Below are positions 51,390 to 64,000 of a stretch of 64,000 nt of DNA, in pieces (position 1 is the first letter of the stretch; every line of letters starts with the position of its first letter). The position numbers were made by a program, and so were the translations under genes. The stretch is from a virus. The notes below the pieces were generated by a model that worked only from the letters and a program-made list of their open reading frames with translations, was not told the DNA's origin and did no database searches. The DNA is taken from IMG/VR virus record IMGVR_UViG_3300022592_000003, positions 1 through 64,000 of that record. The stretch is one strand, 5' to 3'.

Positions 51390-53420
51390 GTGTTTTCGTT
51401 TAAACTAGCAGAAGATTTTGTCAGTTCCTATCGTTCGAAGAAGGTCCCCTGGGGTTACCAGGATGCTGCGGGTAACTCCGTAGGCGAGATTACTTTCTTG
51501 CGTACCTACTCCCGTCTTAAAGAGGACGGAACCAAGGAAACTTGGACAGATGTATGTGAGCGTGTCATTGACGGCATGTATTCACTTCAGAAAGACCACG
51601 CCAAGCAGAACCGTCTGCCTTGGTCTGACGTTAAGGCCGCTTCCTCAGCGAAGGAAGCCTTTGACCGCCTCTGGAACCTAAAGTGGACTCCACCCGGCCG
51701 TGGCCTATGGATGATGGGTACACCCCTCGTCAATGTTCAGAAGAACTCTGCAGCGTTGCAGAACTGCTCCTTTGTATCTACAAATGCTATGACCAAGATT
51801 GACCCAGCCAAGCCTTTCGCCTTCCTTATGGAGGCATCTATGCTGGGAGTCGGTGTTGGCTTTGATGATAAGGGGGCAGATAAAGACTTTACTATCTACC
51901 CTTGCGAAGCAGGAGAAACATATGTCATCCCCGACACCCGAGAAGGCTGGGTTGAATCCACAGCCGCCCTCATCAATTCTTACCTTAAGCCAGATACGAA
52001 GTGCCCTGTATTTGACTACTCACAAATCCGACCAGCCGGTACTCCGATTAAAACCTTTGGAGGCACCGCAGCCGGAGCAGAACCGCTAATCAAACTCCAC
52101 AACCATATCTCTAGGATCTTTGGAAGTCGTGCCGGTGACAAGCTCACCCGTCGTGACATTGCAGATCTTGGAAACCTTATTGGCGTTTGCGTAGTATCCG
52201 GTAACGTCCGCCGCTCAGCAGAGCTTCTCATTGGTCGTATTGACGATGAGGAATTTCTGAACTTAAAGAATGCTGAAGCATTCCCAGAGCGTAACTCCTA
52301 CGATCCAGAGAATCCTGGTTGGGGTTGGATGTCTAACAACTCTGTCGAGGTATCTGTCGGTCAGGACCTAACCCCCATCATTGAGGGTATTGCCCGCAAC
52401 GGTGAGCCTGGCGTAATCTGGATGGATGTAACCCGTAAGTACGGTCGTCTTGCAGATCCTGAGAACAACAAGGACTGGCGTGCAGCTGGGTACAACCCAT
52501 GTGCAGAGCAGTCATTGGAATCAATGGAGTGCTGTACTTTGGTTGAGACATATATCAATCGTCACGACAGCCTAGAGGATTTCAAGCGCACCTTGAAATT
52601 CGCATACCTCTACGCTAAAACAGTTACTTTGATCCCTACGCACTGGGAGGAGACCAACGCTATCATGCAGCGTAACCGCCGCATCGGTACGTCAATCTCC
52701 GGTATCGCCAACTTTGCCGATACAAAGGGTCTCCCACTCCTTCGTACATGGATGGATGAGGGTTACAAGGTAGTAACTAGCTATGACAAGAGTTACTCTG
52801 AATGGCTCGGCATCCGTGAATCAATCAAGATGACAACTGTAAAGCCATCCGGCACAGTCTCAATCTTGGCTGGAGAATCTCCAGGAGTTCACTGGACCCC
52901 AGGCGGCGAGTACTTCCTTCGTACCATCCGCTTTGCTAACAATGACCCTATGTTGCCTCTATTTAAGATGGCTAACTACCGCATTGAGCCTTCGAGTACC
53001 GACCCAGATAATACCTCAGTCGTATACTTCCCGATCAAGTCTCAGGCCCAGCGTTCTGAGAAGGATGTCTCTATTTACGAGAAGATGGCACTGGCAGCTA
53101 CTGCCCAGCGTTACTGGTCAGATAACTCTGTATCTGTAACCGTGTCGTTTAATCCTAAGACTGAGGCCGAAGCTATTGGCACCGTACTGCACATGTACGA
53201 TGGTCAATTAAAGACCGTATCATTCCTTGCTATGGATGATACTCTTTATCCCCAAATGCCGTACACCCAGAGTACTGCTGAGGAATATGAAGCAGCAACT
53301 GCAAGTCTTTTTCCAATTGACCTAGCTGGTGTCTACGCAGGTATGGCCTTCGATGCTATCGGAGAAGCGTACTGCACAACAGATGCTTGCGAAATTAAGT
53401 TGGTAAAGGACAATCAGTAA
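51390..53420 (+). CDS. nrdJ: class II (B12-dependent) ribonucleotide reductase
   Basis: PPGRGLW, NC, GNVRRSA, NPCAEQ.L, TTVKPSGT, C-terminal C....C. Confidence 0.95.
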   Translation: MFSFKLAEDFVSSYRSKKVPWGYQDAAGNSVGEITFLRTYSRLKEDGTKETWTDVCERVIDGMYSLQKDHAKQNRLPWSDVKAASSAKEAFDRLWNLKWTPPGRGLWMMGTPLVNVQKNSAALQNCSFVSTNAMTKIDPAKPFAFLMEASMLGVGVGFDDKGADKDFTIYPCEAGETYVIPDTREGWVESTAALINSYLKPDTKCPVFDYSQIRPAGTPIKTFGGTAAGAEPLIKLHNHISRIFGSRAGDKLTRRDIADLGNLIGVCVVSGNVRRSAELLIGRIDDEEFLNLKNAEAFPERNSYDPENPGWGWMSNNSVEVSVGQDLTPIIEGIARNGEPGVIWMDVTRKYGRLADPENNKDWRAAGYNPCAEQSLESMECCTLVETYINRHDSLEDFKRTLKFAYLYAKTVTLIPTHWEETNAIMQRNRRIGTSISGIANFADTKGLPLLRTWMDEGYKVVTSYDKSYSEWLGIRESIKMTTVKPSGTVSILAGESPGVHWTPGGEYFLRTIRFANNDPMLPLFKMANYRIEPSSTDPDNTSVVYFPIKSQAQRSEKDVSIYEKMALAATAQRYWSDNSVSVTVSFNPKTEAEAIGTVLHMYDGQLKTVSFLAMDDTLYPQMPYTQSTAEEYEAATASLFPIDLAGVYAGMAFDAIGEAYCTTDACEIKLVKDNQ

Positions 53421-53647
53421 TGGTAACCGTATACAGCAATCCAAATTGCTCACAATGCGAGGCTACTAAGCGCTTTCTTACTTTGAAGGAGATTCCTTTC
53501 GAAGCTAAGATGCTGGAGGATTCTCCAGAGATTATGCCACTGATCAAGGAGAAGGGGTACAAGGTAGCTCCTGTAGTAGTTACCGATACCGATTCGTGGT
53601 CAGGCTTTAAACTAGACAAGCTAAACGAACTAGCAGAAACCGCCTAA
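53420..53647 (+). CDS. nrdH: NrdH-like glutaredoxin
   Basis: VTVYS.P.CSQC..TKR.L, APVV, WSGF. Confidence 0.92.
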   Translation: MVTVYSNPNCSQCEATKRFLTLKEIPFEAKMLEDSPEIMPLIKEKGYKVAPVVVTDTDSWSGFKLDKLNELAETA

Positions 53648-53655
53648 GGAGAACC

Positions 53656-53799
53656 ATGTCAGACGATCTAAACCCAGACCTATTCGATGAAGACTTCGAA
53701 GATGACTTCGAAGACGGCCTTGATGAACTAGACCTCGATGATGAGGACCTAGATGACCTCGAAGCAGACCTCGCAGATGACGAGGATGTAGAGGCCTAA
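53656..53799 (+). CDS. 47-aa hyper-acidic protein (not in ORF track)
   Basis: AAGGAG RBS; MSDDLNPDLFDEDFEDDFEDGLDELDLDDEDLDDLEADLADDEDVEA*. Confidence 0.75.
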   Translation: MSDDLNPDLFDEDFEDDFEDGLDELDLDDEDLDDLEADLADDEDVEA

Positions 53800-53820
53800 A
53801 AAACGGCCAACACAAACATT

Positions 53821-53852
53821 TGGCCCCCGACTCAATGAAGAGCCGGGGGCCA
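53821..53852. terminator. hairpin terminator at the convergence of the + and - operons
   Basis: TGGCCCCCGACTC-aatgaa-GAGCCGGGGGCCA; fully paired with a G-U on the minus strand. Confidence 0.8.
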
Positions 53853-53866
53853 TTTGCTTGTCCTAA

Positions 53867-54076
53867 TTAACTAGCTAAGACACGACCTGAGTTATCCGTT
53901 AACTCAAAGTACTGAGTGTCCGAGTCATCTATATCTTCATAGCTCTCTAGCTCATCAGGATATGTGTCGCCTGCAAGAAGCTGCTCGTATATATCCTTAG
54001 CATGCTCGGCGTCATCTGCGTCAAATATTAGTGTGCCATTCTTCTGCATACTAAACATTACTCTGAACTTAGCCAT
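53867..54076 (-). CDS. small acidic protein
   Basis: AAGGAGG RBS; MAKFRV...DADDAEHA. Confidence 0.7.
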   Translation of the reverse strand: MAKFRVMFSMQKNGTLIFDADDAEHAKDIYEQLLAGDTYPDELESYEDIDDSDTQYFELTDNSGRVLAS

Positions 54077-54203
54077 TGGTTTCCTCCTTGTATTGGCATT
54101 CACATTCTTTTACATCAAAGTCGTCATTAGATTCCCAATAGACGACCCCCGTACCATGACACATATTACAGGTACGGGGTAGTACGGTTTCCATGTCCAT
54201 CAT
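54069..54203 (-). CDS. 44-aa Cys-containing protein (not in ORF track)
   Basis: CNMCHGTG...CEC; ATGA-coupled. Confidence 0.6.
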   Translation of the reverse strand: MMDMETVLPRTCNMCHGTGVVYWESNDDFDVKECECQYKEETNG

Positions 54204-54466
54204 GCATCAGCCTTCCAGGTCAACTCACCTGCTAGGTGTGTAGGCTTACCAGCTTCATTTGTAGCACCGATAACCATCTTGATTGACTTGCGCGGTGTGT
54301 TCTCAAGTACGTAAGCCTTGAGATATCGCTTAGCTGCAGATGGGTTAGCCCAAGCAGAGTGCATAGAACCATTGCTGTCTGTAACAGTCAATAACCATGC
54401 CCCACCCTTCTCTACAGTTGTGTTCTTAGTTAGTGTTGCTTCTAGTTTCTTAGTTACTTTAGCCAT
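54200..54466 (-). CDS. hypothetical protein
   Basis: AGGAGGG RBS. Confidence 0.75.
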   Translation of the reverse strand: MAKVTKKLEATLTKNTTVEKGGAWLLTVTDSNGSMHSAWANPSAAKRYLKAYVLENTPRKSIKMVIGATNEAGKPTHLAGELTWKADA

Positions 54467-54476
54467 CTGTGCCCTC

Positions 54477-54713
54477 CTAGAGCTTTATATCTTCGTTGAA
54501 GCCGACTTTCTTTAGATCTCGCAAGATGTTCTTGCCAGCTCTACGATCACCCAGAGATTGTGGTCCGAAGAACACAACCTTTCGTGTATCTGGGTTGACC
54601 ACCTTAACGTGGTGTTTACCTGGCGTGATGCTGACTTCCAGGCCAGCTATCTCTAGGGCATCCACCAGCTTGCGTATTTCCTTTGTCTTTATTGGCAATG
54701 ATGCAAATAGCAT
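54477..54713 (-). CDS. HicA-like mRNA interferase
   Basis: RKLV..LE.AG.EV....KHHVKV.NP...D.RA.KN..RDLKK.G. Confidence 0.65.
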   Translation of the reverse strand: MLFASLPIKTKEIRKLVDALEIAGLEVSITPGKHHVKVVNPDTRKVVFFGPQSLGDRRAGKNILRDLKKVGFNEDIKL

Positions 54714-54781
54714 TCCATCATTCCCCCTTTCTTGGTGTAGACTTGGGGCGTAAGCTCTTAAAGAACAGAGTTCACGCCCTC

Positions 54782-54810
54782 AAGGCCCCGGGATTGCGCC
54801 CCGGGGCTTT
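54782..54810. terminator. GC-rich hairpin
   Basis: AAGGCCCCGGG-attgcg-CCCCGGGGCTTT. Confidence 0.55.
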
Positions 54811-55006
54811 ATATTTCTTCGATTGTTTCTATGTATGCTTCCTCATTGGGTCTGTTCAGATCCTTAACATTAACCCAGTTGGCTACATTCCTGTCGTATA
54901 CGCATAGACTCCACTCTCTGTTACTGTCTATAGACTGGTCATCTACTCTCCACTTTTTGATCTTGACTCTGAACGTAACACGTAGGTCATATAGATCGTT
55001 ATCCAT
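54809..55006 (-). CDS. hypothetical protein
   Basis: AGGGG RBS. Confidence 0.6.
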   Translation of the reverse strand: MDNDLYDLRVTFRVKIKKWRVDDQSIDSNREWSLCVYDRNVANWVNVKDLNRPNEEAYIETIEEI

Positions 55007-55053
55007 TTATCCCCTATCTCCTAATCCATTCTAGCGGGATTGTTTGTGTTGGG

Positions 55054-55248
55054 TCAAATTTCAAAGCCGGAGTCATCATAGATCTCCCCGATCTCTGTCC
55101 AACCAGCCATTTCATCCTTAGACCATAGATGCGTCTCATCATTTGAGATGCTGTTCTCAGCCATGGCCACCGCATCTTCACGGTTATTGGCTTCAAGCGT
55201 ATAGTCATAGATCACATGCTCATGGATAGTTACTCTGTATCGTTTCAT
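55054..55248 (-). CDS. small protein resembling 53867..54076
   Basis: MKRYRV.....Y.LEA...EDA..MA. Confidence 0.65.
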   Translation of the reverse strand: MKRYRVTIHEHVIYDYTLEANNREDAVAMAENSISNDETHLWSKDEMAGWTEIGEIYDDSGFEI

Positions 55249-55388
55249 CCCTTTACCTCCCAATCGTCACATACGGATTGAACTGCATCATCTAGATCTG
55301 CACAGAGGAGTTCGATCTCATCCTCTGACCAGTCAGCTACCATCAAGCGTGTTACTTTTGCTTGCCAGACTACTTCGTTCTCAGGCAT
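55245..55388 (-). CDS. 47-aa acidic protein (not in ORF track)
   Basis: AGGAG RBS; MPENEVVWQAKV...WEVKG*. Confidence 0.6.
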   Translation of the reverse strand: MPENEVVWQAKVTRLMVADWSEDEIELLCADLDDAVQSVCDDWEVKG

Positions 55389-55854
55389 TTAGTGCTCCTG
55401 TCTCGTAGGTGAGTATTGCTGCTTCATCGCTGAAACATTCTTCAACGATCTTTGGGTGAACTTCTTCCCGCATTACACGGAAAGAATCTCTAGGCCAGCC
55501 TTGATCCATAACCCTAGTAAGTAAATTAGCTAAGGCATAGTCTGGGTAGGTGGTGTTTGCGTACTTCAGAAGTTGTGCTGCCGCTTCATCCTGCCCTAAC
55601 TCGTAGCGGAACACTGCTTGGATTGTAATGAATGGGGCTAGATCTTCAGACGGTGCCTTGCGACACATATACTCGATAAACTCAAGACTGTCTTCAATAC
55701 CCCACTTCACTGGAGCACCCATCAACCAGTCCCTAACCTGTAGGTCAGAGTTAACGCCTAAGATAACCGCCTCTAACTTTTCACCGTCTAAATCAATTCC
55801 GGTGTTTAGTGTCTCGGTGATTAACTCACATACTAGCTTTCTTGTTACTATCAT
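55381..55854 (-). CDS. DUF4192-like helical protein
   Basis: D.QVRD.L...AP....A...YELG....A...L......PDY.LA.LL. Confidence 0.6.
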   Translation of the reverse strand: MIVTRKLVCELITETLNTGIDLDGEKLEAVILGVNSDLQVRDWLMGAPVKWGIEDSLEFIEYMCRKAPSEDLAPFITIQAVFRYELGQDEAAAQLLKYANTTYPDYALANLLTRVMDQGWPRDSFRVMREEVHPKIVEECFSDEAAILTYETGALNA

Positions 55855-56308
55855 TCTTGCTCTCCTTTTTTACGATGGTACGGAATGTCCTACCGGGTGT
55901 AGGCCATTTGTATGGCAGGTCAGGACGTACACGAAACCGGTACCAAACCGGATCTTTACGTTTGAGGTTAGAACGATGTGACTTGTGGAACTCATCGTTA
56001 CCCCACCACCATGGTGGATCCCAACCTTGTATATCGTGTGTTGCATATAGCTCTTGCAGCTGTGCCTGTACGTTATCTTGATAGCCACGTTGTCTCCACT
56101 CCATGCACATAGCGTTCGTGTACATGTAGAGATAGCCTTCGTGACCACGCCACATTACTGCTGCAGGGTGATTAACCCACCCCTTAGTTAGACCTAAGTT
56201 AGCCCTCAGAATTTGCAACGCTTCTACACGTTGCTTACCAAGTCTCTTATTGTCTAAGGATTTTGCTGTTCTTGTTTGGTCTGGCCAAGGCAGGAATGTA
56301 TTAACCAT
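55826..56308 (-). CDS. pyrimidine-dimer DNA glycosylase (DenV/MSMEG_6728 family)
   Basis: TFLP...LD.KRLGKQRVEA.QIL, HPA..MWRGH, SHRSNL.RKDP..Y. Confidence 0.88.
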   Translation of the reverse strand: MVNTFLPWPDQTRTAKSLDNKRLGKQRVEALQILRANLGLTKGWVNHPAAVMWRGHEGYLYMYTNAMCMEWRQRGYQDNVQAQLQELYATHDIQGWDPPWWWGNDEFHKSHRSNLKRKDPVWYRFRVRPDLPYKWPTPGRTFRTIVKKESKNDSNKKASM

Positions 56309-56385
56309 TAGTCCTCCTTAGGCTCTATACACTTGTGGTATTCCCACAAGCCTTGTTTCATGTGATCTCCACACCAATTGCACAT
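56308..56385 (-). CDS. 25-aa micro-ORF (CxxC...H.C)
   Basis: GGAGG RBS; TAATG-coupled at both ends. Confidence 0.5.
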   Translation of the reverse strand: MCNWCGDHMKQGLWEYHKCIEPKED

Positions 56386-56543
56386 TATTCCTCCAATAGC
56401 ATTGGGATTAGATCTTCTGCATCATGTTTGATGAGTAGGTTGCGTACGGTCTCTTTGTTCTTAGCGTAGAGATCGTCCTCTCGTTGTTTAAGCATCTCAC
56501 TCAGCCATGTGGCTGGGTCATCCTGTCTTAAACGGTTGTTCAT
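56385..56543 (-). CDS. 52-aa hypothetical protein (not in ORF track)
   Basis: ATGA and TAATG coupling. Confidence 0.6.
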   Translation of the reverse strand: MNNRLRQDDPATWLSEMLKQREDDLYAKNKETVRNLLIKHDAEDLIPMLLEE

Positions 56544-56731
56544 GCTTGACCTACAAGCACGATGTGGTTATCTTGGGCCCACTCTTCAGGTTCAGATACA
56601 GATTCGATGGTGAGGTTTTCCCCACCATCGGCTAGTTCATCTGACGCATACAAGAGCCACATCTGGGCGCTCTCGTAATCGTTGAATGGTCCTATCAACG
56701 TCTCAGTGAGACTGTCGTATATGACATGCAT
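56540..56731 (-). CDS. hypothetical protein
   Basis: GGAG RBS. Confidence 0.7.
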   Translation of the reverse strand: MHVIYDSLTETLIGPFNDYESAQMWLLYASDELADGGENLTIESVSEPEEWAQDNHIVLVGQA

Positions 56732-56754
56732 TTTGACTCCATTGTTTGTGTTGG

Positions 56755-58590
56755 TTAACGATTGCGCTTTTTGATAGCGCCTGTGACTACTGACTTGGCA
56801 AACGGTAGAAGATCACGAGCCGACTTGATTCGACCATAGATCTCAGCACCGTGACGCCATTCATTCTCATTAGATCCTCGACCTGCATACCATTCAGCCG
56901 TACTGTCATCCATGATCAATGTCATGGCTGTTAGCACGCCTCGCTTGGCAATACGTTCGATGATCTCATCGTTCTTGTTGGCGTCAAACGCACCGTCGGT
57001 GATGATGAACAGCATCTTGTTCTTCTTACGAGAGGACATAAGTAACTGTTCGGCAGCAAGCAATGTGGAATACGGATTGGTTCCACCATTGCCATAGATG
57101 AACTTATACCTGCTCTTATCAGCAAGCTCAGTACGGCCATACGCCAGCTCAGCCTGGTCATCGAATGCATAGACTGTGACTGGAGCACCGATCTGTTCTA
57201 GAGCACGCTTGATTGTCCAGCATGCGATAGAAGCATCACGGTCGTTACCACCACCGGACATAGAGCCTGATCTATCCACCATGATTACGGCTTCAACATC
57301 AGCACCATCATTGCCTTCGTCCCAACGATCGAATGCTTCATCAACTTCACAGCCTCTGATAGCACGCTGAACATTGAGCTTACCGCTGGCTTCCTCACGA
57401 TGCCACATAGGTTCACACTCGTCACGCAAACGTTGTAGTTCACGAGCAAACTTGCGATACAAGACCATGGATTCATCAGGGACGATAGTCTTATCGAACT
57501 TACCCTTCTTGATCGCATCATCATGTTTACCGTCTCCGCCAACGATTACCTTCTGCTTAGTCTTGATATCCTGCTGAACGTCTTTACGTTCTAGCACTGT
57601 CTGGATAGTGTCCTCAAGCATGTCTTTGACTGATTGTGGAATACCACCAAGACTATCTACATGGCCTTGGCCAGGAGTCATAGATGGTGGTAGGTTGCTC
57701 TGCTGATTTTGCTCTCTAATGTCTAGAGCTTCTTGAGCAGATTGTGGTTGCGTGGTTGTTTGTGTTGGATTGGATTTAGGAGCGACTGATGTTGACTCAG
57801 CCTTACCCATACCACCAGCACGCTTGGCATCCTTCTCCTGAGCCTTGCCAGGTTCGGGACGACCTTTGGTTACTGGGTCACGATTAGTACAGCCGTTAGG
57901 ACCTTGCGGCATGTTCGGCATGTCTAGATTACCTAGCACCTCATCATTGAAGCGCTTGATAAGTTCCTGACCCTTAGCATAGTCACGTGGGAATGCCAAC
58001 AGACGATACTGATCTACGATGTCTGCGATTACTGGCACGAGTTCAGGCTTAGCAAACATATCTCTGAATGCTTGCCTGATTTCAATTGGTAGATATCTAC
58101 GACCACGGACTAGCAAATAGTTTCCTGCTGCTTCCTCCGGTGTTGTTGATAGCCACCTAGATATTGTTGCTGTTAGATACGGCGCAATAGATGGATAACG
58201 AGCGACTAGCAAGGTTTCAATACGCTGATCCTCCAGCATATTGGCTGCTTGCATTAAGTCGTTCTCGACTACCCACTTCATGAACGTAGTACCACGACGT
58301 GGTGTATACAAGTGATGAGCAAGCTCATGATAATTAAGGCCGTTGACTTGAGTTAGTGTCTCAAGATCTATCTCCTTGATCTCATCGGCATTGAACGTAA
58401 TAGATTGTCCGTCTGACCATGCTGGCGCTGGACCACCTTGAACTACGTTAATCGTAACCGGATCTCCAGAGAGAACACGGTCAGCCTGCTCATACACACG
58501 GCAGAGAGCGTTGAGTCGTACAGATCGTTCCTGTGCTTCCTCGTCACGTTCCTGCCGATACCACGCATCATTCAGGTCTTCCTCAAACAT
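56755..58590 (-). CDS. VWA-domain protein with N-terminal HExxH domain (CobT-like)
   Basis: HELAH, N.LED.RIE; MIDAS DRSGSM, GGT, ITDG. Confidence 0.9.
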   Translation of the reverse strand: MFEEDLNDAWYRQERDEEAQERSVRLNALCRVYEQADRVLSGDPVTINVVQGGPAPAWSDGQSITFNADEIKEIDLETLTQVNGLNYHELAHHLYTPRRGTTFMKWVVENDLMQAANMLEDQRIETLLVARYPSIAPYLTATISRWLSTTPEEAAGNYLLVRGRRYLPIEIRQAFRDMFAKPELVPVIADIVDQYRLLAFPRDYAKGQELIKRFNDEVLGNLDMPNMPQGPNGCTNRDPVTKGRPEPGKAQEKDAKRAGGMGKAESTSVAPKSNPTQTTTQPQSAQEALDIREQNQQSNLPPSMTPGQGHVDSLGGIPQSVKDMLEDTIQTVLERKDVQQDIKTKQKVIVGGDGKHDDAIKKGKFDKTIVPDESMVLYRKFARELQRLRDECEPMWHREEASGKLNVQRAIRGCEVDEAFDRWDEGNDGADVEAVIMVDRSGSMSGGGNDRDASIACWTIKRALEQIGAPVTVYAFDDQAELAYGRTELADKSRYKFIYGNGGTNPYSTLLAAEQLLMSSRKKNKMLFIITDGAFDANKNDEIIERIAKRGVLTAMTLIMDDSTAEWYAGRGSNENEWRHGAEIYGRIKSARDLLPFAKSVVTGAIKKRNR

Positions 58591-58599
58591 TTACCCTCC

Positions 58600-60009
58600 T
58601 TATACTATGGCGGTGTGTTGGGTTACCCATTGTGCTAACTGCTCATCAATAGGTAGGTCTACTTGCTGCTCAACTTCGATCTGGATTTCCATACCGAAGT
58701 CAGTCTTGATGTTGTGCTCGTGTGTCTGGAATACCAGACGTACGGATGCTTGCTCGTCTGCTGAGAAGTGAGCAATGAAGTTCTCAACTGCAAAGTCATA
58801 GCCGAGATCCTCATCCTTGATGAACTCCTCGATCTCCATGAGCATGTTAGTTGAGATTGGGGTCTCATACTGACCCTTGGCTGCCTCGCCACGCAATTGC
58901 TTAACGAGTGATAGCAAGGACTTGGATGAGACTAGCTTTGCCTCGACATTGTCGTCGTAATCCCATGACAGTTGAATGTCAAAGCGGTTACGCATAGCAA
59001 AGTTGAGCGGTGTGGTACCGATATAGTCTGGGTTCATGGTCGCAAAGATTGTTAGATCCTTGTGGGCCACGATTGTTTCACCCATATGATCGAGCAGCGT
59101 AATGCTACGACGACCATCGGTGAGTGGATATAGGGTGGTATAGATCTTAGGACTGATGAAGTTCATCTCGTCCAGTAGTAGTACACCACCGTTGCGAACA
59201 ACGTCAGTTACTGGCCCGTCAATCCAGCCATAGCTGCCGTTGCCATCAGGAATAAAGCCACCGAATAGCTGGCGAGACTCCATAGATGCGTTACCAGATA
59301 CTGTTGCCATACGCAAGCCACGTGCTGCGGCCCACGCTTCAACAGCTGTAGTCTTACCGGGGCCGGTTGGGCCGTAGATAAGAACGTTGATGTGCTTATC
59401 ACGTGCTTTGTCGAAGATGTTGAAGTCTTCAACGTTGTACAGCTTACGATGTACATATCGTTCTGCCAAATGCTGTGGCGGAACTGTAGCTAGTGATACA
59501 GCAAATGTTGGAGACGCTGTCTGCTGTACAGGAGCGGCATCCTCGTTTGTTTGTGTTGGGACAGGAACTACTAGAGGAACTGTAGTGCTTGTCGCAGCAC
59601 GATTATCTGTTACGTATGCTTCCAATGAATCATCTCCGATGCTGATTTGTTCGTAGAAGTTACACACAACATCTACCAGAGGTGTTGTGTCTGTTGTTGG
59701 TTCAGCCTTGGAATGCTTGTCGCATGCCTTGGTGCCCAACACTGGGGAATATCCCTTGGAAGTCATGGCACGCTCATCCGCTGGCGTAACGTATACGCCA
59801 ACAGGAGTCCGTGTCAATATCTCACTATCCAAAATGCTACTAGTTAGACTGTCAAGAGTAGTTTCCTCCCACTTATTGTGAGGACCCTTAGTTCCATCGG
59901 TCAACCTAGAGTACACACGCACATTACCATCATGCGGTGTGATAAGAACTTGACGACGCTTGCCGTTCAAGCCCTCATCGTATGACTCAGTGAACATTGC
60001 TATGTCCAT
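58600..60009 (-). CDS. MoxR/CobS-like AAA+ ATPase
   Basis: GPTGPGKT, LLDEMN, ATMNP.Y.GT..LN.A..NRF. Confidence 0.92.
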   Translation of the reverse strand: MDIAMFTESYDEGLNGKRRQVLITPHDGNVRVYSRLTDGTKGPHNKWEETTLDSLTSSILDSEILTRTPVGVYVTPADERAMTSKGYSPVLGTKACDKHSKAEPTTDTTPLVDVVCNFYEQISIGDDSLEAYVTDNRAATSTTVPLVVPVPTQTNEDAAPVQQTASPTFAVSLATVPPQHLAERYVHRKLYNVEDFNIFDKARDKHINVLIYGPTGPGKTTAVEAWAAARGLRMATVSGNASMESRQLFGGFIPDGNGSYGWIDGPVTDVVRNGGVLLLDEMNFISPKIYTTLYPLTDGRRSITLLDHMGETIVAHKDLTIFATMNPDYIGTTPLNFAMRNRFDIQLSWDYDDNVEAKLVSSKSLLSLVKQLRGEAAKGQYETPISTNMLMEIEEFIKDEDLGYDFAVENFIAHFSADEQASVRLVFQTHEHNIKTDFGMEIQIEVEQQVDLPIDEQLAQWVTQHTAIV

Positions 60010-60035
60010 TTGTTACCCTTTCTCTCGGTTATTGC

Positions 60036-60275
60036 TTAGTTGTCAGGACCGAACAGTCGTTCGGCCATCACAGTTATGAAGGTGAAGCTTGCTTGCCTAG
60101 ATTGTGGCCACTCAGTAATCAATTCAAATAGAATATCTTTCTCAGAGGCACTATCTATTACTTTGCTGAATTGTCCTTGAGCAAACTCAATGAACTCTTC
60201 ACGTTCTTCTTCAGGAATCATGTCAAGAGTAAACTCTTGTGGTTCGATTCCCTCATCGTCACATTCGTGACACAT
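60036..60275 (-). CDS. acidic hypothetical protein
   Basis: AGAAAGGA RBS. Confidence 0.7.
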   Translation of the reverse strand: MCHECDDEGIEPQEFTLDMIPEEEREEFIEFAQGQFSKVIDSASEKDILFELITEWPQSRQASFTFITVMAERLFGPDN

Positions 60276-60293
60276 ATGCTTTCCTTTCTCTAG

Positions 60294-60457
60294 ATGTTTG
60301 GTTGGCTTACCTCTGGCGCCTTCAGGGACTTTTGGGTCTAGCTCAACGTCACCTCAACTGCCGCTACACACGATGGTATCTGTGTGCACTAGTCATTTTG
60401 GATCGGTCTCTTGCATCACCGCCGGTATGTCGGAAGTAGGCTTAGCCAACCAAACAT
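60294..60457 (-). ncRNA. candidate structured RNA
   Basis: Intergenic; perfect 14-bp closing stem (ATGTTTGGTTGGCT / AGCCAACCAAACAT) with internal hairpins. Confidence 0.6.
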
Positions 60458-60467
60458 AGCTGACAAC

Positions 60468-60764
60468 CTAGAGCTGCCAGCCGATCGAGACACTTACTGA
60501 ACCATCTACATCATAGTGATCTAGATTGATTCCACGTTGCCAGCGGTCAAGCATTACCTTTTTACCGCTTTCACGTGTGGATTCGTAGCAACCAAGATAT
60601 GACTCGTGGTAATGCTCGAAGCCTTTATGTCGGGTGTTATATATTTCCAAGTACTGTTGATGTGCTTGGATACGACGTCCGCAATTGCCGCAAGAGTTGA
60701 TTGCTGTTACCAGTTCATTCTCAGAGGCTGTCTGCGACGCCCTTAACTTAGCCTTTTCAGACAT
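60468..60764 (-). CDS. hypothetical protein (CGNC...H...C)
   Basis: AGAAAGGG RBS. Confidence 0.7.
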   Translation of the reverse strand: MSEKAKLRASQTASENELVTAINSCGNCGRRIQAHQQYLEIYNTRHKGFEHYHESYLGCYESTRESGKKVMLDRWQRGINLDHYDVDGSVSVSIGWQL

Positions 60765-60795
60765 AGTCACCCTTTCTCGGGTTTGTTTGTGTTGG

Positions 60796-61296
60796 TTAGT
60801 ATTTACCCTGGGCTTTTTCCATGACTACAACGTCAACAGAGTTTTGTGTACTGTTAACGAGGATGTCATGGAAAGCACCATGGTCCATCTGCTTACTTAA
60901 AGCACCGGCTACAGTACCTAAGTAATTTCCTGCACTGCCTGGCTTATTACGGAGAATAGCCCGTGTAGCCACTACAGTTTCACCCCATGCATATGCAAGA
61001 GGCGCTAGATATTCACTGTATGCCTTCACAGTGTTATCCATTCCATCAGGTGTGCCAGCGATAGCAGCAGAAAGAATCTCGAGGGTGCGAGATCTTTCTT
61101 CAGTATCTGCGTTTGACAACAGGAAGCTCATTACAGCATCCCTGAAGTTTGTAGATATCTCGCTCATCTGTACTAGATTGCGAGGAACTAAGCCACCTCT
61201 AAGGTACTGCGATGCAAGAGCAGGATCCGTTGTTTCACCTGACATGTATGCAGCGATAGAGATGTTAGGATCATAATTAACTTTGAGATCCAACAT
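60796..61296 (-). CDS. helical protein, possibly DUF4192-like
   Basis: FRDA...LA.LAYAWGE...A. Confidence 0.55.
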   Translation of the reverse strand: MLDLKVNYDPNISIAAYMSGETTDPALASQYLRGGLVPRNLVQMSEISTNFRDAVMSFLLSNADTEERSRTLEILSAAIAGTPDGMDNTVKAYSEYLAPLAYAWGETVVATRAILRNKPGSAGNYLGTVAGALSKQMDHGAFHDILVNSTQNSVDVVVMEKAQGKY

Positions 61297-62014
61297 ATGC
61301 GGCTACCATCCTTTCTAGTTCGTTCATTGGTTGTTTTACTATGTTGCCATTCTGTACTCTGATAGGCGAACCATCCCAAAGTACAGAAACCTTTTTATTC
61401 CCATAGTCACGCTTGCCAAGACCGTTACATGACCAACACATTTCTGTTAGTTTTGTTAGGTGACTGTCTGTTTGATTATGACTACATTCGAGTTGGTGAT
61501 ACTTTCTCCAATTATTTGAAGGCTGTGCGCCTGGATGATCAGGGCAAATAAATGTCCCATCCTCAGCAGTACTACCTACAAAACAAGTTGGTGGATTACA
61601 CCAGCCATCTATTTTGCCGATCTGCCTACACATACGGCAGCCTTGGGTCTTTGATGGGGTAAACGCAGCATCACGTTCGGTGATATAGAATTTGAAATTA
61701 CGGCGGTTAACTTGAATACCGGCATACTTCCAGATGGTATATCGCATGCTCTGACTATCTAAGCAATTGAATGATCCACCCCAATGGGTAGATACCTGAC
61801 CACCTTGTAAGGTCATAGTATCGTCAGGGTGAATTGTGATTAGTGGGTGCCTGTTAGTCCATTGATTGACTATCTGTATGTCGCTAGTCTTATTGAACTT
61901 GTTGGCATACTGAATGCGATTGCGTTGACCGTCATAGAGCGTACGCTCCCATTTCTTACGGCCATTAGCAAGATACGATTGCCATTCAGCATACGTATGA
62001 ACTCGCCAACTCAT
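61277..62014 (-). CDS. Cys-rich hypothetical protein
   Basis: CRMC..G, CWSCNG.G (DnaJ-like zinc pairs). Confidence 0.7.
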   Translation of the reverse strand: MSWRVHTYAEWQSYLANGRKKWERTLYDGQRNRIQYANKFNKTSDIQIVNQWTNRHPLITIHPDDTMTLQGGQVSTHWGGSFNCLDSQSMRYTIWKYAGIQVNRRNFKFYITERDAAFTPSKTQGCRMCRQIGKIDGWCNPPTCFVGSTAEDGTFICPDHPGAQPSNNWRKYHQLECSHNQTDSHLTKLTEMCWSCNGLGKRDYGNKKVSVLWDGSPIRVQNGNIVKQPMNELERMVAAYVGSQS

Positions 62015-62322
62015 TGCGCCTCCGCTGTCTCAAATAAACCTGCATAGCAGGCTACAGGAGCTGGATCCTCCATGTCAACATACTGGAGTTCGATAACACG
62101 CTCACGGTCACGCTCGAGTGTTTGTGTTGGCTCATTATCGAACCACACAGATGTGAGTGATATCACAGATGAATCAGGTTTGAGTAACTTGAGGGCAAAC
62201 CCCAAGCCATCCATCAAGCCACTGTGGTATGCACGACTATGCTGATGGTCATCCCAATGCAGGTCATCGTGCTCCTCAACTATCTGTTGCTCTATAGCCT
62301 TTACTATCTTCTTGCGCTTCAT
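62011..62322 (-). CDS. hypothetical protein
   Basis: ATGA-coupled. Confidence 0.65.
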   Translation of the reverse strand: MKRKKIVKAIEQQIVEEHDDLHWDDHQHSRAYHSGLMDGLGFALKLLKPDSSVISLTSVWFDNEPTQTLERDRERVIELQYVDMEDPAPVACYAGLFETAEAQ

Positions 62323-62591
62323 ACTAGTGACTTACCTAGTAGGGAAACAGACTGAGGGTTGTAAACCTTGCCTGTCTTCCAATGAGGTATTGATTTGTGA
62401 TCAGCACGACCACCGGCAGCCTTCCAAGCCTCACGCTTTTCGTGGCTCTTGAGAGTACGACCGTTGACATGTGTGAAGTTAGACTTCTCCATCTGTGCTG
62501 GTCCTGGGTTTTGCTTGCGAGCCTTACCGTTCTTACGGTCACCCGCTGTGTTTGCTTTCGGAGTTGATACTCCGCCTTTACCTTTTGCCAT
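62319..62591 (-). CDS. basic hypothetical protein
   Basis: GAAAGGGG RBS; Lys/Gly-rich. Confidence 0.7.
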   Translation of the reverse strand: MAKGKGGVSTPKANTAGDRKNGKARKQNPGPAQMEKSNFTHVNGRTLKSHEKREAWKAAGGRADHKSIPHWKTGKVYNPQSVSLLGKSLV

Positions 62592-62611
62592 TGTCTGGCC
62601 CCTTTCGGAGG

Positions 62612-62866
62612 TTAGTAGATTGTCTCTACACTGCTGTGTAGAGTTGTGATGCCATCCTCATCCCATAGGAATGAGGCTTCCTTGTAGGTCAGTCCCTTAT
62701 AGGCAACCGCATCTACAATGAATTCTAGTCGTGCGATAGAGCGTTCAAAGACTCCTTGAACAGTCTCATCAATCAGTAATATGCGTCCTTGCTTGAAGGC
62801 TTGTTCTTGTACCTCAGCAATAGTTAGCTTAGGTGAGAGGCGCATCTCAAGATATATATCGTCCAT
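62612..62866 (-). CDS. hypothetical protein
   Basis: TAATG-coupled. Confidence 0.65.
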   Translation of the reverse strand: MDDIYLEMRLSPKLTIAEVQEQAFKQGRILLIDETVQGVFERSIARLEFIVDAVAYKGLTYKEASFLWDEDGITTLHSSVETIY

Positions 62867-63132
62867 TATTTATGCCAATCTACTAGATAGGTTGTGCCCC
62901 ACTTATCATAGGGAATGTTGATGATGGTCCAAATCTTCCACCACCTATATCCTGCTCGTGATAGTTCAGTGCCGTTGTAATGGGCAAAGTCTTCATGATC
63001 TAATGCTCGCTCTATCGCAAAACTTGATAGATGATTGCAAGCATTGGCAAACCACCTGAGTGGCAAGATGTTGGTCTTGTGCTCTGGTGTGGTTGAATAC
63101 TCAAACCTACCGTGCAAGTCTTCCGGTTCCAT
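62866..63132 (-). CDS. hypothetical protein
   Basis: AGAAAGGAG RBS. Confidence 0.7.
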   Translation of the reverse strand: MEPEDLHGRFEYSTTPEHKTNILPLRWFANACNHLSSFAIERALDHEDFAHYNGTELSRAGYRWWKIWTIINIPYDKWGTTYLVDWHK

Positions 63133-63154
63133 AGTTACTCCTTTCTATTAGTAA

Positions 63155-63182
63155 TGAGCAGTTTATAGAGATGCTCAGCTCT
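63155..63182 (-). ncRNA. H-type pseudoknot copy A
   Basis: AGAG-CUGAGCAU-CUCU-AUAAAC-UGCUCA. Confidence 0.6.
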
Positions 63183-63229
63183 TGGCGAGGGAGGTTTTCT
63201 GACTACAAGTCATCCCGCACTCCGTGCCG

Positions 63230-63302
63230 TGCCCTCAGCCAGAATCGAACTGGCAACACTCACCTTAGGACGATGATGTTCTATCCATTGAACTATGAGG
63301 GC
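63230..63302 (-). tRNA. tRNA-Arg (anticodon CCU), CCA not encoded
   Basis: GCCCTCA acceptor stem; GTTC/GAAC D arm; TCATC-GTCCTAA-GGTGA anticodon arm; GCCAG-TTCGATT-CTGGC T arm. Confidence 0.93.
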
Positions 63303-63303
63303 G

Positions 63304-63334
63304 TAAGCAGTTTAGCCTTGTCATGCTTAGGACA
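63304..63334 (-). ncRNA. H-type pseudoknot copy B
   Basis: UGUC-CUAAGCAU-GACA-AGGCUAAAC-UGCUUA. Confidence 0.6.
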
Positions 63335-63423
63335 GGAGTTCTTTTACCTCAGGAAGAACTATAGAAACCAACCACATGTGGACTCTCGTCTCTTAGACCA
63401 CTTAATGTGTGTTATTAAATTGT

Positions 63424-63867
63424 TTAGCGGATGAACTGAGCCCAAGTAGATGTTGTTGTGATCTTGAACTCAGTATCTGTTGAGCCTTGGATGATTGCGA
63501 TAGCATTTTCTACCTGATCGTAATCACTCAATGGCTTGCTGTAGTTTCGAGTTTTATACTCAGGACTACGAGAACACTGTGGGTATTTACCCAAGGCTGC
63601 CTCTAGTTCTGTAGTATCAAAGTAGATACTGGCACGATAGCTATTCGCATAGCCTCCTATACCGATATCAAACTTTGTTGCCTTAGCGATGTTCTTCTTG
63701 ACCCATGCTTCGGCCTTCTTTTCCCAAGCGGCACGACGCTTTTCAATGGTGGCAGAGTCTTTTTCCCACTCTGTTATCTCATCGTCCATACGCTTGATTG
63801 TTGCTTTTAACTTGGCGACTAGATCTTTCTTAGCCCAAGTTGTTGCGATTACCTTGGTTGAGGTCAT
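63424..63867 (-). CDS. hypothetical coiled-coil protein
   Basis: AAAGGAGG RBS before ATG 63867. Confidence 0.75.
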   Translation of the reverse strand: MTSTKVIATTWAKKDLVAKLKATIKRMDDEITEWEKDSATIEKRRAAWEKKAEAWVKKNIAKATKFDIGIGGYANSYRASIYFDTTELEAALGKYPQCSRSPEYKTRNYSKPLSDYDQVENAIAIIQGSTDTEFKITTTSTWAQFIR

Positions 63868-63933
63868 GGTAATAGCCCTCCTTTGTTGTACGTGGTCCCC
63901 ACCACGGCTGTGGCGGGGCGTGTTTGTGTTGGT

Positions 63934-63964
63934 GCATGTTTTATAGACCACATGCTCTGCGTCT
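63934..63964 (-). ncRNA. H-type pseudoknot copy C (divergent)
   Basis: AGAC-GCAGAGCAUGUG-GUCU-AUAAA-ACAUGC. Confidence 0.45.
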
Positions 63965-64000
63965 TCATGTGCATACCATCTCTATACAGTCAGAACTAAG

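What the first reader, a model, noticed from the sequence alone, without database searches (positions are those of the whole stretch)
53807..63932. Transcription-polarised 12-mer CCAACACAAACA repeated 8 times, only in the last 10 kb
Seen: seven exact copies on the minus (sense) strand. Four are intergenic (55041, 56743, 60784, 63921) and three lie inside CDSs, always read as PTQT (57757, 59548, 62119). One copy is on the plus strand at 53807, where transcription is rightward. I noticed none in the first 53 kb (scanned by eye); chance expectation for a given 12-mer in this window is far below 1. Inference: asymmetric protein-binding sites like mycobacteriophage L5 stoperators, or RNA-level signals (antitermination, processing, antisense target) that control the early region.
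Basis: partly seen in the sequence, partly recalled or inferred. Interest (0 to 1): 0.75.

Follow-up and report, generated by a model that had tools for sequence, protein, structure and literature searches.

The report
Conserved one-strand 12-mer in actinophage operon
An exact 12-letter DNA word is repeated along one early operon of a large group of uncultured freshwater phages, always on the transcribed-sense strand and with one copy next to a terminator hairpin, so it is almost certainly a regulatory signal, though what reads it is still unknown.

Summary
CCAACACAAACA occurs 8 times in the window (0.04 expected) and nowhere else in the 89-kb record. It is the record's only word of 10 or more bases with at least 5 copies.

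The phage is a ~100-kb, apparently lytic actinophage myovirus. In 54 related contigs (1.01 Mb) the word occurs 262 times on the block's sense strand and 45 times on the other strand. With the window's own copy, 45 of 46 opposite-strand copies follow a strong hairpin.

Selection acts on nucleotides, not on a PTQT peptide. The word is the most widely shared 12-mer in three genes and is read in all three frames. One lineage changed position 7 at all 7 sites, which implies a co-evolving reader.

Best reading (about 0.45): a signal read on the sense transcript or single strand that controls termination, processing or decay. A stoperator-like DNA roadblock is the main rival (about 0.2). No reader was identified.

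The scan noted this same stretch once more in another window of the same genome, not on other DNA.

The parts
53807..53818 (+). Terminal copy of the 12-mer, inverted relative to the block. It is on the sense strand of the convergent rightward (RNR/glutaredoxin) operon, 7 nt after a stop codon and 3 nt before the hairpin.
   Evidence: An equivalent hairpin-adjacent copy is present in 45 of 46 opposite-strand copies across relatives.
53821..53852 (.). GC-rich hairpin (13 pairs) acting as a likely bidirectional terminator between the convergent operons. On the leftward strand its tail is the complement of the 12-mer.
   Evidence: top terminator-like site. In relatives the stem sequence varies but its position next to the copy is kept. 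The 40 nt before these copies have a median MFE of -26.3 kcal/mol, against -5.5 for random 40-mers.
55041..55052 (-). Last sense copy. It starts 1 nt after a TGA stop and lies in the 18-bp spacer of a sigma-70-like promoter.
   Evidence: The same context occurs in 17 of 55 sequences, all in the closer clade, and not in distant relatives.
55028..55057 (-). Best sigma-70-like promoter of the block, TTGACC-18-TAGAAT (10 of 12 matches), driving the four-gene cassette.
   Evidence: This is a consensus match only, not shown to be functional.
53867..55006 (-). Four small genes between the last sense copy and the inverted copy. They include a HicA-fold 78-aa protein (54477-54713) and a basic 88-aa protein of unknown fold (54200-54466).
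   Evidence: HicA-like; 88 aa, no clear match. These are candidate readers or effectors only, by position.
56743..56754 (-). Junction copy. It starts directly after the TAA of the VWA gene, and the RBS and ATG of the next gene follow within 11 nt.
57757..57768 (-). Copy inside the VWA gene, in a hypervariable linker. It is read in frame 0 here and mostly in frame 1 in relatives.
   Evidence: frame 1 in 22, frame 0 in 8; 30 of 52 orthologs; next best unrelated 12-mer 24.
59548..59559 (-). Copy inside the AAA_5/MoxR-like ATPase gene (about residue 151). It is the best conserved copy.
   Evidence: 49 of 54 orthologs; next best unrelated 12-mer 28 of 54.
60784..60795 (-). Junction copy that starts directly after a TAA stop and lies upstream of the RBS of a 100-aa gene.
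62119..62130 (-). Copy inside a 103-aa gene of unknown function.
   Evidence: 21 of 41 orthologs; frames 0:14, 1:5, 2:2.
63921..63932 (-). First copy of the block. It is preceded by a conserved hairpin-like segment plus TATAAA-N7, and followed after 2 nt by a 9-bp hairpin.

Best explanation
The 12-mer is a cis-acting signal that is read while single-stranded on the sense side. That means in the transcript, or possibly in the non-template DNA strand of the transcription bubble. A dedicated trans-acting factor reads it and sets the fate of transcripts of the phage's leftward early operon.

Internal copies, spaced about every 1.25 kb, mark the long polycistronic RNA wherever the sequence can tolerate the word: gene junctions and disordered protein linkers. 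One further copy sits 2-4 nt in front of the terminator hairpin of the convergent operon, and in some relatives in front of other terminators. There the same factor could modulate termination, or remove or protect the 3' hairpin.

My preferred sub-mechanisms are (i) a sequence-specific endonucleolytic processing or decay site, in the manner of T4 RegB, or (ii) a termination/antitermination loading site.

Shown: the element is real, polar, under nucleotide-level selection and co-evolving with a reader. Inferred: that the reading happens on RNA or a single strand.
For: (1) Reality and selection.
- 8 copies against 0.04 expected.
- It is the only word of 10 or more bases with at least 5 copies in 89 kb.
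- It is present in all 16 close relatives and persists in most of the roughly 40 more distant loci, down to about 54% AAA-protein identity.
- In 54 loci there are 262 sense and 45 opposite-strand copies. My arithmetic gives about 0.12 expected for any given 12-mer in 1.01 Mb.

(2) Nucleotide-level, not peptide-level selection.
- It is the most widely shared 12-mer among orthologs of three genes: 49 of 54, 30 of 52 and 21 of 41. The best unrelated words reach 28, 24 and 13.
- Only 1.6% of AAA codon columns are invariant.
- It is read in frames 0, 1 and 2.

(3) Polarity follows transcription.
- 8 of 10 stray copies outside the block are on the sense strand of the local genes.
- The single inverted copy is on the sense strand of the convergent operon.

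(4) Terminator coupling.
- 45 of 46 opposite-strand copies follow a strong hairpin, and the stem sequence differs between lineages.
- 3 of the 10 strays repeat the layout stop codon, motif, 3-15 nt, hairpin, U-tract at the end of an unrelated gene. A roadblock just before a terminator would be redundant, whereas an RNA 3'-end signal would not.

(5) Composition. The word contains only A and C, so it cannot fold on itself. By my arithmetic about 1 in 1000 random 12-mers use a non-self-complementary two-letter alphabet.

(6) Tolerated variants are mostly transitions. On the sense strand T1 57, T7 22, G3 5 and G10 1 total 85 copies. Transversions total 19, of which 16 are at position 12.

(7) Concerted change. 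All 7 sites of L053 carry T7. In L093 the terminal copy and 3 of 5 sense copies carry G3.

(8) The promoter-spacer context that would favour an operator is limited to 17 of 55 sequences.

(9) No recognisable DNA-binding repressor, sigma region 4 or integrase was found.
Against: - No transcript 5' or 3' ends are available. The only RNA run holds short contigs of relatives at low depth. At least one contig (record 17) and one loose end run across motif copies, so efficient cleavage there is not indicated, and DNA carry-over cannot be excluded.
- The accessibility test did not discriminate. Native sites are more often unpaired than the same word inserted at random (0.229 against 0.163, p = 0.001), but the antisense control shifts the same way (p = 0.0017).
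- Exact invariance over 12 nt is longer than most single-strand RNA-binding proteins read. It is typical of a two-domain DNA-binding monomer such as the L5-type repressor (PMC9283540, passages read).
- In the closer clade one copy sits exactly in a -35/-10 spacer, a classic operator position.
- The transition bias rests on few independent variant types, and the copies are phylogenetically non-independent.
- No reader was identified. The HicA-fold protein is only a positional candidate. E. coli HicA specificity is listed as 'poorly defined' (PMC8546651, passages read).
- 2 of 10 strays are antisense.
Confidence: 0.45

Rival explanations
1. Stoperator-like DNA site. A phage-encoded monomeric protein binds the asymmetric double-stranded 12-mer. 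It represses the cassette promoter and blocks elongating RNA polymerase in an orientation-dependent way, shutting off the early operon of a lytic phage. The terminal inverted copy stops polymerases of the convergent operon from entering the block antisense.
For: - Stoperators are asymmetric 13-mers in actinophages. They lie in promoters and short intergenic spaces, their orientation correlates with transcription, and they lose function when reversed (PMC9283540, passages read).
- Here the site is 12 bp, asymmetric and totally polar.
- Three junction copies fill tiny intergenic gaps.
- One copy lies in the spacer of the best promoter.
- The sites co-evolve in concert, as binding sites of one protein would.
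Against: - No integrase or resolvase in 3 of 3 genomes tested.
- No HTH_3, sigma region 4 or other recognisable repressor.
- The sites are restricted to one roughly 10-kb operon plus terminator-adjacent strays, not spread genome-wide.
- Many sites lie inside genes.
- The promoter context is absent in distant relatives.
- A roadblock 2-15 nt upstream of an intrinsic terminator is redundant.
- A double-stranded reader does not explain the A/C-only composition.
Confidence: 0.2
2. RNA-guided reading. The hairpin-adjacent inverted copy is the gene for the reader. Leftward transcripts that run past the hairpin carry UGUUUGUGUUGG. This pairs with every sense copy, in the way a tracrRNA anti-repeat pairs with CRISPR repeats, and makes 12-bp duplexes that a double-strand-specific factor cuts or blocks.
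For: - There is about one anti-sense copy per genome, and it is coupled to a hairpin in 45 of 46 cases.
- The complement contains only G and U, so every transition in a target keeps pairing through G.U wobble. This matches the variant spectrum.
- In L053 the inverted copy carries T7, so its transcript would pair with all 6 sense sites by Watson-Crick or G.U pairs.
- A structured RNA in the block is closed by a 14-bp stem made of a motif-like and an anti-motif-like arm.
- The cassette encodes a dsRBD-like (HicA-fold) protein.
Against: - In L023 and L056 the inverted copy has G3 while all of their sense copies keep A3. That gives an A.C mismatch at every site. L093 is only partly matched.
- The anti-motif lies 3' of the terminator hairpin, so it would be absent from terminated RNA. 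It is also an unusual place for a seed.
- 12 bp is short for known RNase III guides (recalled).
- The look-alike stem RNA is found in only 7 of 16 close loci.
- The terminator-adjacent strays carry the sense word, not the anti-word.
Confidence: 0.1
3. DNA-metabolism signal. The copies are polar sites for replication or recombination: a Ter-like fork trap made of two opposed groups, Chi-like protection from a helicase-nuclease, strand-specific nick sites as in T5, or priming sites.
For: - Seven sites in one orientation and one in the other converge on a 1.2-kb segment, which is the geometry of a fork trap.
- The spacing, median 1.25 kb, is on the scale of Okazaki fragments.
- The phage has its own DnaB, Pol I and UvsX.
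Against: - The sites are confined to about 10% of the genome, and copy number varies from 2+1 to 11+1.
- Strays follow local gene direction and sit at terminators.
- The hairpin coupling looks like a transcription terminator.
- GC skew follows gene class and transcription direction and shows no replichore pattern.
- 12 nt is longer than known Chi sites (recalled).
- Host genomes could not be searched for over-representation.
Confidence: 0.08
4. Translation signal. The word is an unstructured C/A-rich standby or enhancer sequence placed just upstream of ribosome-binding sites, comparable to the start-associated sequences of Cluster K phages.
For: - Junction copies are followed within 0-20 nt by an RBS and a start codon.
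- SAS are 13-bp asymmetric repeats confined to the non-structural half of the genome. They have one orientation, with a single opposite-orientation site in four of the phages described (PMC3203893, passages read).
Against: - Many copies lie inside genes far from any start, including the best conserved one, in the AAA gene at about residue 151.
- The word contains no Shine-Dalgarno core.
- Some copies precede terminators rather than starts.
- A generic enhancer would not need 12 invariant positions or change in concert.
Confidence: 0.04

Closest known systems
Stoperators of Cluster A mycobacteriophages (L5 gp71 / TipsytheTRex repressor sites)
   Same: Both occur in actinophages. Both are short asymmetric words (13 bp against 12) in many copies. 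Orientation is tied to the direction of transcription. Sites lie in tiny intergenic gaps, and one lies at a promoter. Source: PMC9283540, passages read.
   Different: - The phage here is apparently lytic, with no integrase and no recognisable repressor.
- The sites are limited to one operon.
- Many sites are intragenic.
- One copy is obligatorily coupled to a terminator hairpin.
- The word contains only A and C.
Start-associated sequences (SAS/ESAS) of Cluster K mycobacteriophages
   Same: Both are asymmetric repeats restricted to the non-structural part of the genome. [quoted passage not shown] Both are conserved across subclusters, and the function and reader are unknown in both. Source: PMC3203893, passages read.
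   Different: SAS lie 3-7 bp from start codons and contain the AGGAG Shine-Dalgarno core. The present word has no SD core, is often far from any start, and in some places precedes terminators.
T4 RegB endoribonuclease sites in early mRNAs (recalled, not checked in a paper here)
   Same: Both would be a phage-specific sequence signal scattered through early transcripts, at intergenic and some coding positions, read on RNA by a small phage nuclease related to toxin folds and serving early-gene shut-off. A HicA-fold protein is encoded in the block.
   Different: The RegB signal is a 4-nt GGAG. Here 12 nt are invariant. No cleavage has been shown, and nothing links the HicA-like protein to the word.
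ops / RfaH and lambda nut (boxA) processive antitermination signals (recalled)
   Same: These are sense-strand-specific signals of about 12 nt, read on non-template DNA or nascent RNA, that alter termination over long operons.
   Different: They normally occur once, near the operon start. No NusG/RfaH-like NGN domain is found in three genomes. No sequence similarity to those signals was seen.

Membership tests
L5-type stoperator/immunity system | Many copies of one asymmetric word of about 13 bp, with orientation correlated with transcription | tested here: met
   There are 8 copies, all on the sense strand of local transcription. Family-wide counts are 262 sense and 45 opposite-strand.
L5-type stoperator/immunity system | Sites distributed throughout the genome, in promoters and short intergenic spaces | tested here: not met
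   The sites are confined to one block of about 10 kb in 89-104-kb genomes. Three of the 7 sense copies in the window, and most copies family-wide, lie inside genes.
L5-type stoperator/immunity system | Temperate phage with an integrase and an HTH immunity repressor | tested here: not met
   PF00589 and PF00239 gave 0 of 3 genomes. HTH_3 gave 0 of 3. HTH_17 gave one sub-threshold match, in G001 only. A divergent repressor without a Pfam match cannot be excluded.
L5-type stoperator/immunity system | Protein binding to the duplex site blocks elongation in one orientation only | not testable with these tools
   This needs EMSA and reporter assays.
Cluster K start-associated sequences | Located 3-7 bp upstream of start codons and containing the AGGAG core | tested here: not met
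   The word has no G. Junction copies lie 10-34 nt from starts, and the coding copies lie far from any start.
Cluster K start-associated sequences | Asymmetric, restricted to the non-structural region, one orientation plus a single opposite site | tested here: met
   The comparison is with PMC3203893.
ops/RfaH-type antitermination | A NusG paralog encoded with the system | tested here: inconclusive
   PF02357 was not found in 3 phage genomes. A host-encoded paralog could not be examined.
Chi-like or uptake-like host signal | Strong over-representation of the word in the host genome | not testable with these tools
   No host genome could be reached. Collection scans need at least 14 specified bases.
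HicA toxin family (the 78-aa cassette protein at 54477-54713; a side question) | Pfam HicA_toxin match above the curated cut-off | tested here: not met
   E = 0.0017 and 18.8 bits, against a cut-off of 27.
HicA toxin family (the 78-aa cassette protein at 54477-54713; a side question) | alpha-beta-beta-beta-alpha dsRBD-like fold with a conserved histidine after the first strand | tested here: met
   - The AF2 model has pLDDT 77 and topology H-E-E-E-H.
- The best geometric Foldseek matches are HicA3 4p78_C (TM 0.52/0.58, E 0.24), 1whz and 6hpb_A.
- Four of the top 6 VIA rows are HicA chains, Z 5.2-4.5, which is low in absolute terms.
- G32, K33 and H35 are invariant in 13 sequences.
- The catalytic role of the histidine is recalled, not tested.

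The most novel reading that the evidence does not exclude
The block is an RNA-guided control system. The single hairpin-linked inverted copy encodes an 'anti-repeat' whose G/U-only sequence pairs, with wobble tolerance, with every dispersed sense 'repeat' in the early polycistronic RNA and in the 3' ends of other operons. This directs a double-strand-recognising phage factor, perhaps the dsRBD-like HicA-fold protein, to cut or silence those transcripts. It would be a tracrRNA-like logic operating inside a lytic phage's own gene-expression programme.
Probability: 0.1. Interest if true: 0.9.

Novelty: new variant of a known kind. Interest (0 to 1): 0.62.

Why it matters
Dispersed, orientation-locked words are known from two groups of cultured actinophages: stoperators and SAS. 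Only the first has a known reader.

This element extends the phenomenon to a large clade of uncultured freshwater actinophage myoviruses. The AAA ATPase family has 408 homologs at E <= 1e-30, many on contigs of about 100 kb. The features here are new:
- strict confinement to one early operon;
- placement inside genes, in whatever reading frame is tolerated;
- a word made only of A and C;
- an obligatory copy beside a terminator hairpin;
- a lineage-wide concerted switch of the word.

Tried and rejected
- **Peptide-level explanation (PTQT motif): rejected.** The VWA copy is in frame 1 in 22 orthologs and frame 0 in 8. The 103-aa gene uses all three frames. A distant-clade copy reads P-N-T-N.
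- **The word as a promoter (single-element, MotA-box-like or phage-polymerase type): rejected.** Apart from the one cassette promoter there is no conserved -10-like element at a fixed distance. The TATAAA-N7 context of the first copy is not general.
- **Crude sense/antisense test against the longest ORFs: discarded.** Shadow ORFs in the small-gene regions mislabel the promoter and terminal copies.
- **First hairpin-adjacency script: invalid.** 1341 of 2000 random positions passed. It was replaced by the energy test.
- **RNA accessibility test: inconclusive.** The antisense control shifts in the same direction.
- **Public runs: not decisive.** The stretch is held by pond, freshwater and viral metagenomes. 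The single metatranscriptome (X14, share 0.08) gave 11 short contigs of relatives covering parts of 57.5-61 kb and 63.2-63.8 kb. Contigs cannot show ends, and parts without cover say nothing.
- **GMA6, a cultured distant relative (AAA about 45% identical):** no analogous polar word in 40.8 kb.
- **Megablast of the block against cultured phages:** no match.
- **Rfam on 53-64 kb:** only the tRNA.
- **Search for a reader: nothing found.**
  - PHROGs and Pfam on 30 ORFs of the block gave only AAA_5, VWA_2 (sub-threshold), Pyr_excise, DUF4192, WhiB, glutaredoxin and a weak HicA hit.
  - Profile searches of four small proteins against PDB sequences found nothing.
  - The 88-aa protein has no clear fold match: Foldseek E >= 0.13, best VIA Z 6.3.
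  - The protein atlas gave no usable hit for the 90-aa protein and only unnamed viral clusters for the 88-aa protein.
- **Host genomes: not reached.** The RNR search in genome contigs returned two contigs that look like phage DNA binned into MAGs.
- **GC skew:** no replichore signal.
- **Stray-copy gene identity.** I guessed that the gene carrying the stray 'motif + terminator' was the major capsid gene. This was wrong: there is no similarity and no PHROG.
- **Literature.** The 12-mer string is held by 16 papers (15 listed). By their titles and abstract starts none concerns phages (search listing only). The searches for stoperators, freshwater actinophages and HicA were seen as listings. I read passages of PMC9283540, PMC8546651 and PMC3203893. 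I opened no supplementary files. The SAS and stoperator site lists in the supplements of those papers could refine the comparison.

Full report
**Observation.** CCAACACAAACA occurs 8 times in the window, at exactly the positions and strands reported. The expectation from 100 shuffles is 0.04. Allowing one mismatch adds nothing. The window is the first 64 kb of an 89,242-bp IMG/VR virus record, and the remaining 25 kb holds no copy. A census of all k-mers shows that this is the only word of 10 or more bases with at least 5 copies in the record. The conserved unit is exactly 12 nt, and the flanks are unrelated.

**The genome.** PHROGs and Pfam identify a tail sheath, baseplate, portal, terminase, major head protein, DnaB-like helicase, family-A DNA polymerase, UvsX-like recombinase, ribonucleotide reductase and a Tgt-like protein. 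This makes it a myovirus of about 100 kb.
- A WhiB transcription factor (PF02467, E 1.7e-15) lies at record position 64658-65008 on the minus strand, just outside the window.
- Five of 5 complete relatives carry 2-3 WhiB genes, one of them in or just upstream of the motif block. Among the 14 control genomes the family is found only in Corynebacterium. The clade therefore infects Actinobacteria.
- Runs holding the DNA are pond, freshwater and viral metagenomes.
- No cultured phage is close. Megablast finds nothing. The best tblastn hits of the AAA ATPase are Gordonia and Brevibacterium phages at about 45% identity.
- No tyrosine integrase or serine recombinase is found in this record or in two complete relatives, so the phage is probably lytic.

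**The block.** The copies lie in a leftward gene block running from about 66.8 to 53.9 kb. It holds many small genes of unknown function, a tRNA-Arg(CCT), a MoxR/CobS-like AAA_5 ATPase, a VWA protein, a DUF4192 protein and a DenV-like glycosylase.
- Seven copies are on the sense strand of this block.
- The eighth copy is on the other strand. It lies 7 nt after the stop of the last rightward ORF and 3 nt before the strongest hairpin of the region.
- Three sense copies begin 0-1 nt after a stop codon and precede the next RBS.
- Three lie inside genes.
- The first follows a conserved hairpin-like segment.

**Conservation.**
- All 16 IMG/VR contigs that encode a close AAA homolog (71-91% identity) carry the exact word 3-10 times. 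The copies are on the sense strand, and 14 of the 16 also have one exact opposite-strand copy at the distal end. L023 has a variant there, and L024 is cut short.
- About 40 more distant contigs were reached with two divergent homologs as queries. The word persists in most of them, including the most divergent reached, with about 54% AAA identity to the query.
- Over 54 loci (1,012,155 bases) the word occurs 262 times on the sense strand and 45 times on the other. A given 12-mer is expected about 0.12 times by my arithmetic.
- Ten largely complete records were searched whole. Each has one block of same-strand copies closed by one inverted copy, with copy numbers from 2+1 to 11+1. Six of them have 1 to 3 strays elsewhere.
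- Median spacing of sense copies is 1.25 kb.

**Level of selection.** The word is the single most widely shared 12-mer among orthologs of three genes, although it sits in their most variable segments:

| Gene | Orthologs with the word | Best unrelated 12-mer |
|---|---|---|
| AAA ATPase | 49 of 54 | 28 of 54 |
| VWA | 30 of 52 | 24 of 52 |
| 103-aa gene | 21 of 41 | 13 of 41 |

Only 1.6% of AAA codon columns are invariant. The VWA copy is read in frame 1 in 22 orthologs and frame 0 in 8. The 103-aa gene uses all three frames. A distant-clade copy reads P-N-T-N. The PTQT reading is therefore incidental, and selection acts on the nucleotides.

**Variants and concerted change.**
- Single-substitution variants on the sense strand are T1 (57), T7 (22), C12 (15), G3 (5), A5 (2), and T12, G10 and A1 (1 each). 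Transitions total 85 and transversions 19, of which 16 are at the last position.
- These copies are related by descent, so the counts are not independent events.
- In L053 no site keeps the canonical C7. Four sense sites are G6T7, one is G3T7 and one is T7, and the hairpin-adjacent copy is T7.
- In L093 the hairpin-adjacent copy and 3 of 5 sense copies carry G3.
- In L056 and L023 only the hairpin-adjacent copy carries G3.
- A switch shared by all dispersed sites of one genome requires a trans-acting reader that changed with them.

**The opposite-strand copy.** Forty-five of the 46 canonical opposite-strand copies (the 54 loci plus the window) are preceded on the block strand by a strongly folding 40-mer. 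The median is -26.3 kcal/mol. Random 40-mers have a median of -5.5 and a 5th percentile of -12.2. The one exception is the second unit of a tandem pair.
- The stems differ between lineages in sequence, length and GC content, while the 2-4-nt gap to the copy is kept.
- Sense copies are not hairpin-associated: 18 of 269 downstream and 22 of 269 upstream fall below the 5th percentile.
- Seen from the convergent operon, the layout is stop codon, word, 2-4 nt, terminator hairpin.

**Strays.** Ten copies outside the blocks of five genomes were fetched.
- Eight are on the sense strand of the local long ORFs. Three of those ORFs are supported by PHROGs hits.
- Two are antisense inside genes, and one of these is a variant word.
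- Three strays (L102, L107, L108) repeat the layout stop codon, word, 3-15 nt, hairpin, U-tract. In two of them (L107, L108) this lies behind a gene of about 355 aa with no known family, which is not the capsid gene.

**Promoter context.** The best sigma-70-like promoter of the block, TTGACC-18-TAGAAT, has the last sense copy as its spacer. This context is present in 17 of 55 sequences, all in the closer clade. In distant relatives the corresponding copy lies in other contexts, often inside a gene. Being an operator inside a promoter is therefore not a general property of the element.

**Search for a reader.**
- Six-frame searches of three genomes found no HTH_3, no sigma-70 region 4 and no NusG NGN domain. 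There was one sub-threshold HTH_17 match, in G001 only.
- The cassette between the last sense copy and the inverted copy encodes four small proteins that are conserved in about 40 of 54 loci, many of which are truncated.
- The 78-aa protein is HicA-like. The Pfam hit is sub-threshold. The model has an alpha-beta-beta-beta-alpha topology at pLDDT 77. HicA chains are the best geometric matches in two aligners, with weak scores. G32, K33 and H35 are invariant.
- E. coli HicA specificity is listed as poorly defined (PMC8546651), so this protein is only a positional candidate.
- The 88-aa neighbour folds confidently (pLDDT 88) but has no clear structural relative.
- Profile searches against PDB sequences and the atlas gave nothing.

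**Interpretation.** The element is real, old, polar with respect to transcription, selected at the nucleotide level and co-evolving with a reader.

I favour reading on the sense transcript or on a single strand (about 0.45) for five reasons:
- the word contains only A and C;
- copies sit immediately upstream of terminator hairpins in three unrelated contexts;
- variants are mainly transitions;
- the promoter context is not universal;
- the phage has neither lysogeny functions nor a recognisable repressor.

A stoperator-like duplex-binding roadblock remains a serious rival (about 0.2). The reasons are the 12-nt invariance, the actinophage precedent (PMC9283540) and the promoter-spacer copy.

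An RNA-guided version, with the hairpin-linked inverted copy as an anti-repeat, is the boldest reading still allowed (about 0.1). The A.C mismatches predicted in L023 and L056 count against it.

DNA-metabolism readings (about 0.08) and a translation enhancer (about 0.04) fit fewer facts.

**Comparison with known systems.** The closest known phenomena are the stoperators of Cluster A and the SAS of Cluster K mycobacteriophages. SAS share the restriction to the non-structural region, the single orientation and the lone opposite-orientation site, and their reader is also unknown (PMC3203893). This element fails defining features of both. It is not genome-wide, and no immunity repressor was found in an apparently non-temperate phage. 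It is also not start-associated and has no SD core. I therefore class it as a new variant of a known kind. No paper in the held library contains the word in a phage context (listing only).

Noticed in passing
window 60294-60457 (-): A structured RNA of about 165 nt lies between two genes. It is closed by a perfect 14-bp stem whose 3' arm is the 12-mer minus one A and whose 5' arm is the matching anti-word. MFE is -59 kcal/mol and z is -2.7. The stem words recur in 7 of 16 close loci, with paired changes at the flanking pair.
   Followed up: partly
window 54200-54713 (-): A HicA-fold 78-aa protein with invariant G-K-x-H is followed by a conserved basic 88-aa protein of unknown fold. This could be a toxin-antitoxin-like pair in a lytic phage's early block. 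It is driven by the promoter that has the 12-mer in its spacer.
   Followed up: partly
window 54782-54810 (+ strand hairpin, inside the leftward cassette): A strong GC hairpin (11 pairs) with a T-tail on the plus strand sits between the first and second cassette genes, opposite to the direction of the genes.
   Followed up: no
window 63229-63302 (-): tRNA-Arg(CCT) is embedded in the early polycistronic operon, between the first and second motif copies.
   Followed up: no
window 63933-63990 (-) and the equivalent positions in L009, L013, L016, L017; also L029, L040, L041: Small conserved hairpin-like segments (AGACACA...TGTGGTCT, or CTCTC...GAGAG) end 1-20 nt upstream of some motif copies. They may be the mini-pseudoknots that another first-stage note mentions.
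   Followed up: no
record G000 64658-65008 (-), outside the window; also G001, G002, G006, G008, G010: Each complete relative carries 2-3 WhiB paralogs. One of them is always in or just upstream of the motif block.
   Followed up: partly
window 53420-53799 (+): The glutaredoxin gene and a 47-aa hyper-acidic ORF (27 of 47 residues are D or E) at the end of the rightward operon have no tblastn match in any of the 54 related loci.
   Followed up: no
L097 17716-17780: Two tandem units of 'hairpin + inverted 12-mer' lie 53 nt apart. This is a local duplication of the terminal module.
   Followed up: no
L109 (JBDNFI010000028.1, 106 kb) and L110 (JBMCYV010000063.1, 3.4 kb): Contigs filed under a Cyclobacteriaceae MAG and a Nitrosomirales archaeon MAG encode an RNR that is 76% and 61% identical to this phage's. 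By size and content they look like phage DNA binned into MAGs.
   Followed up: no
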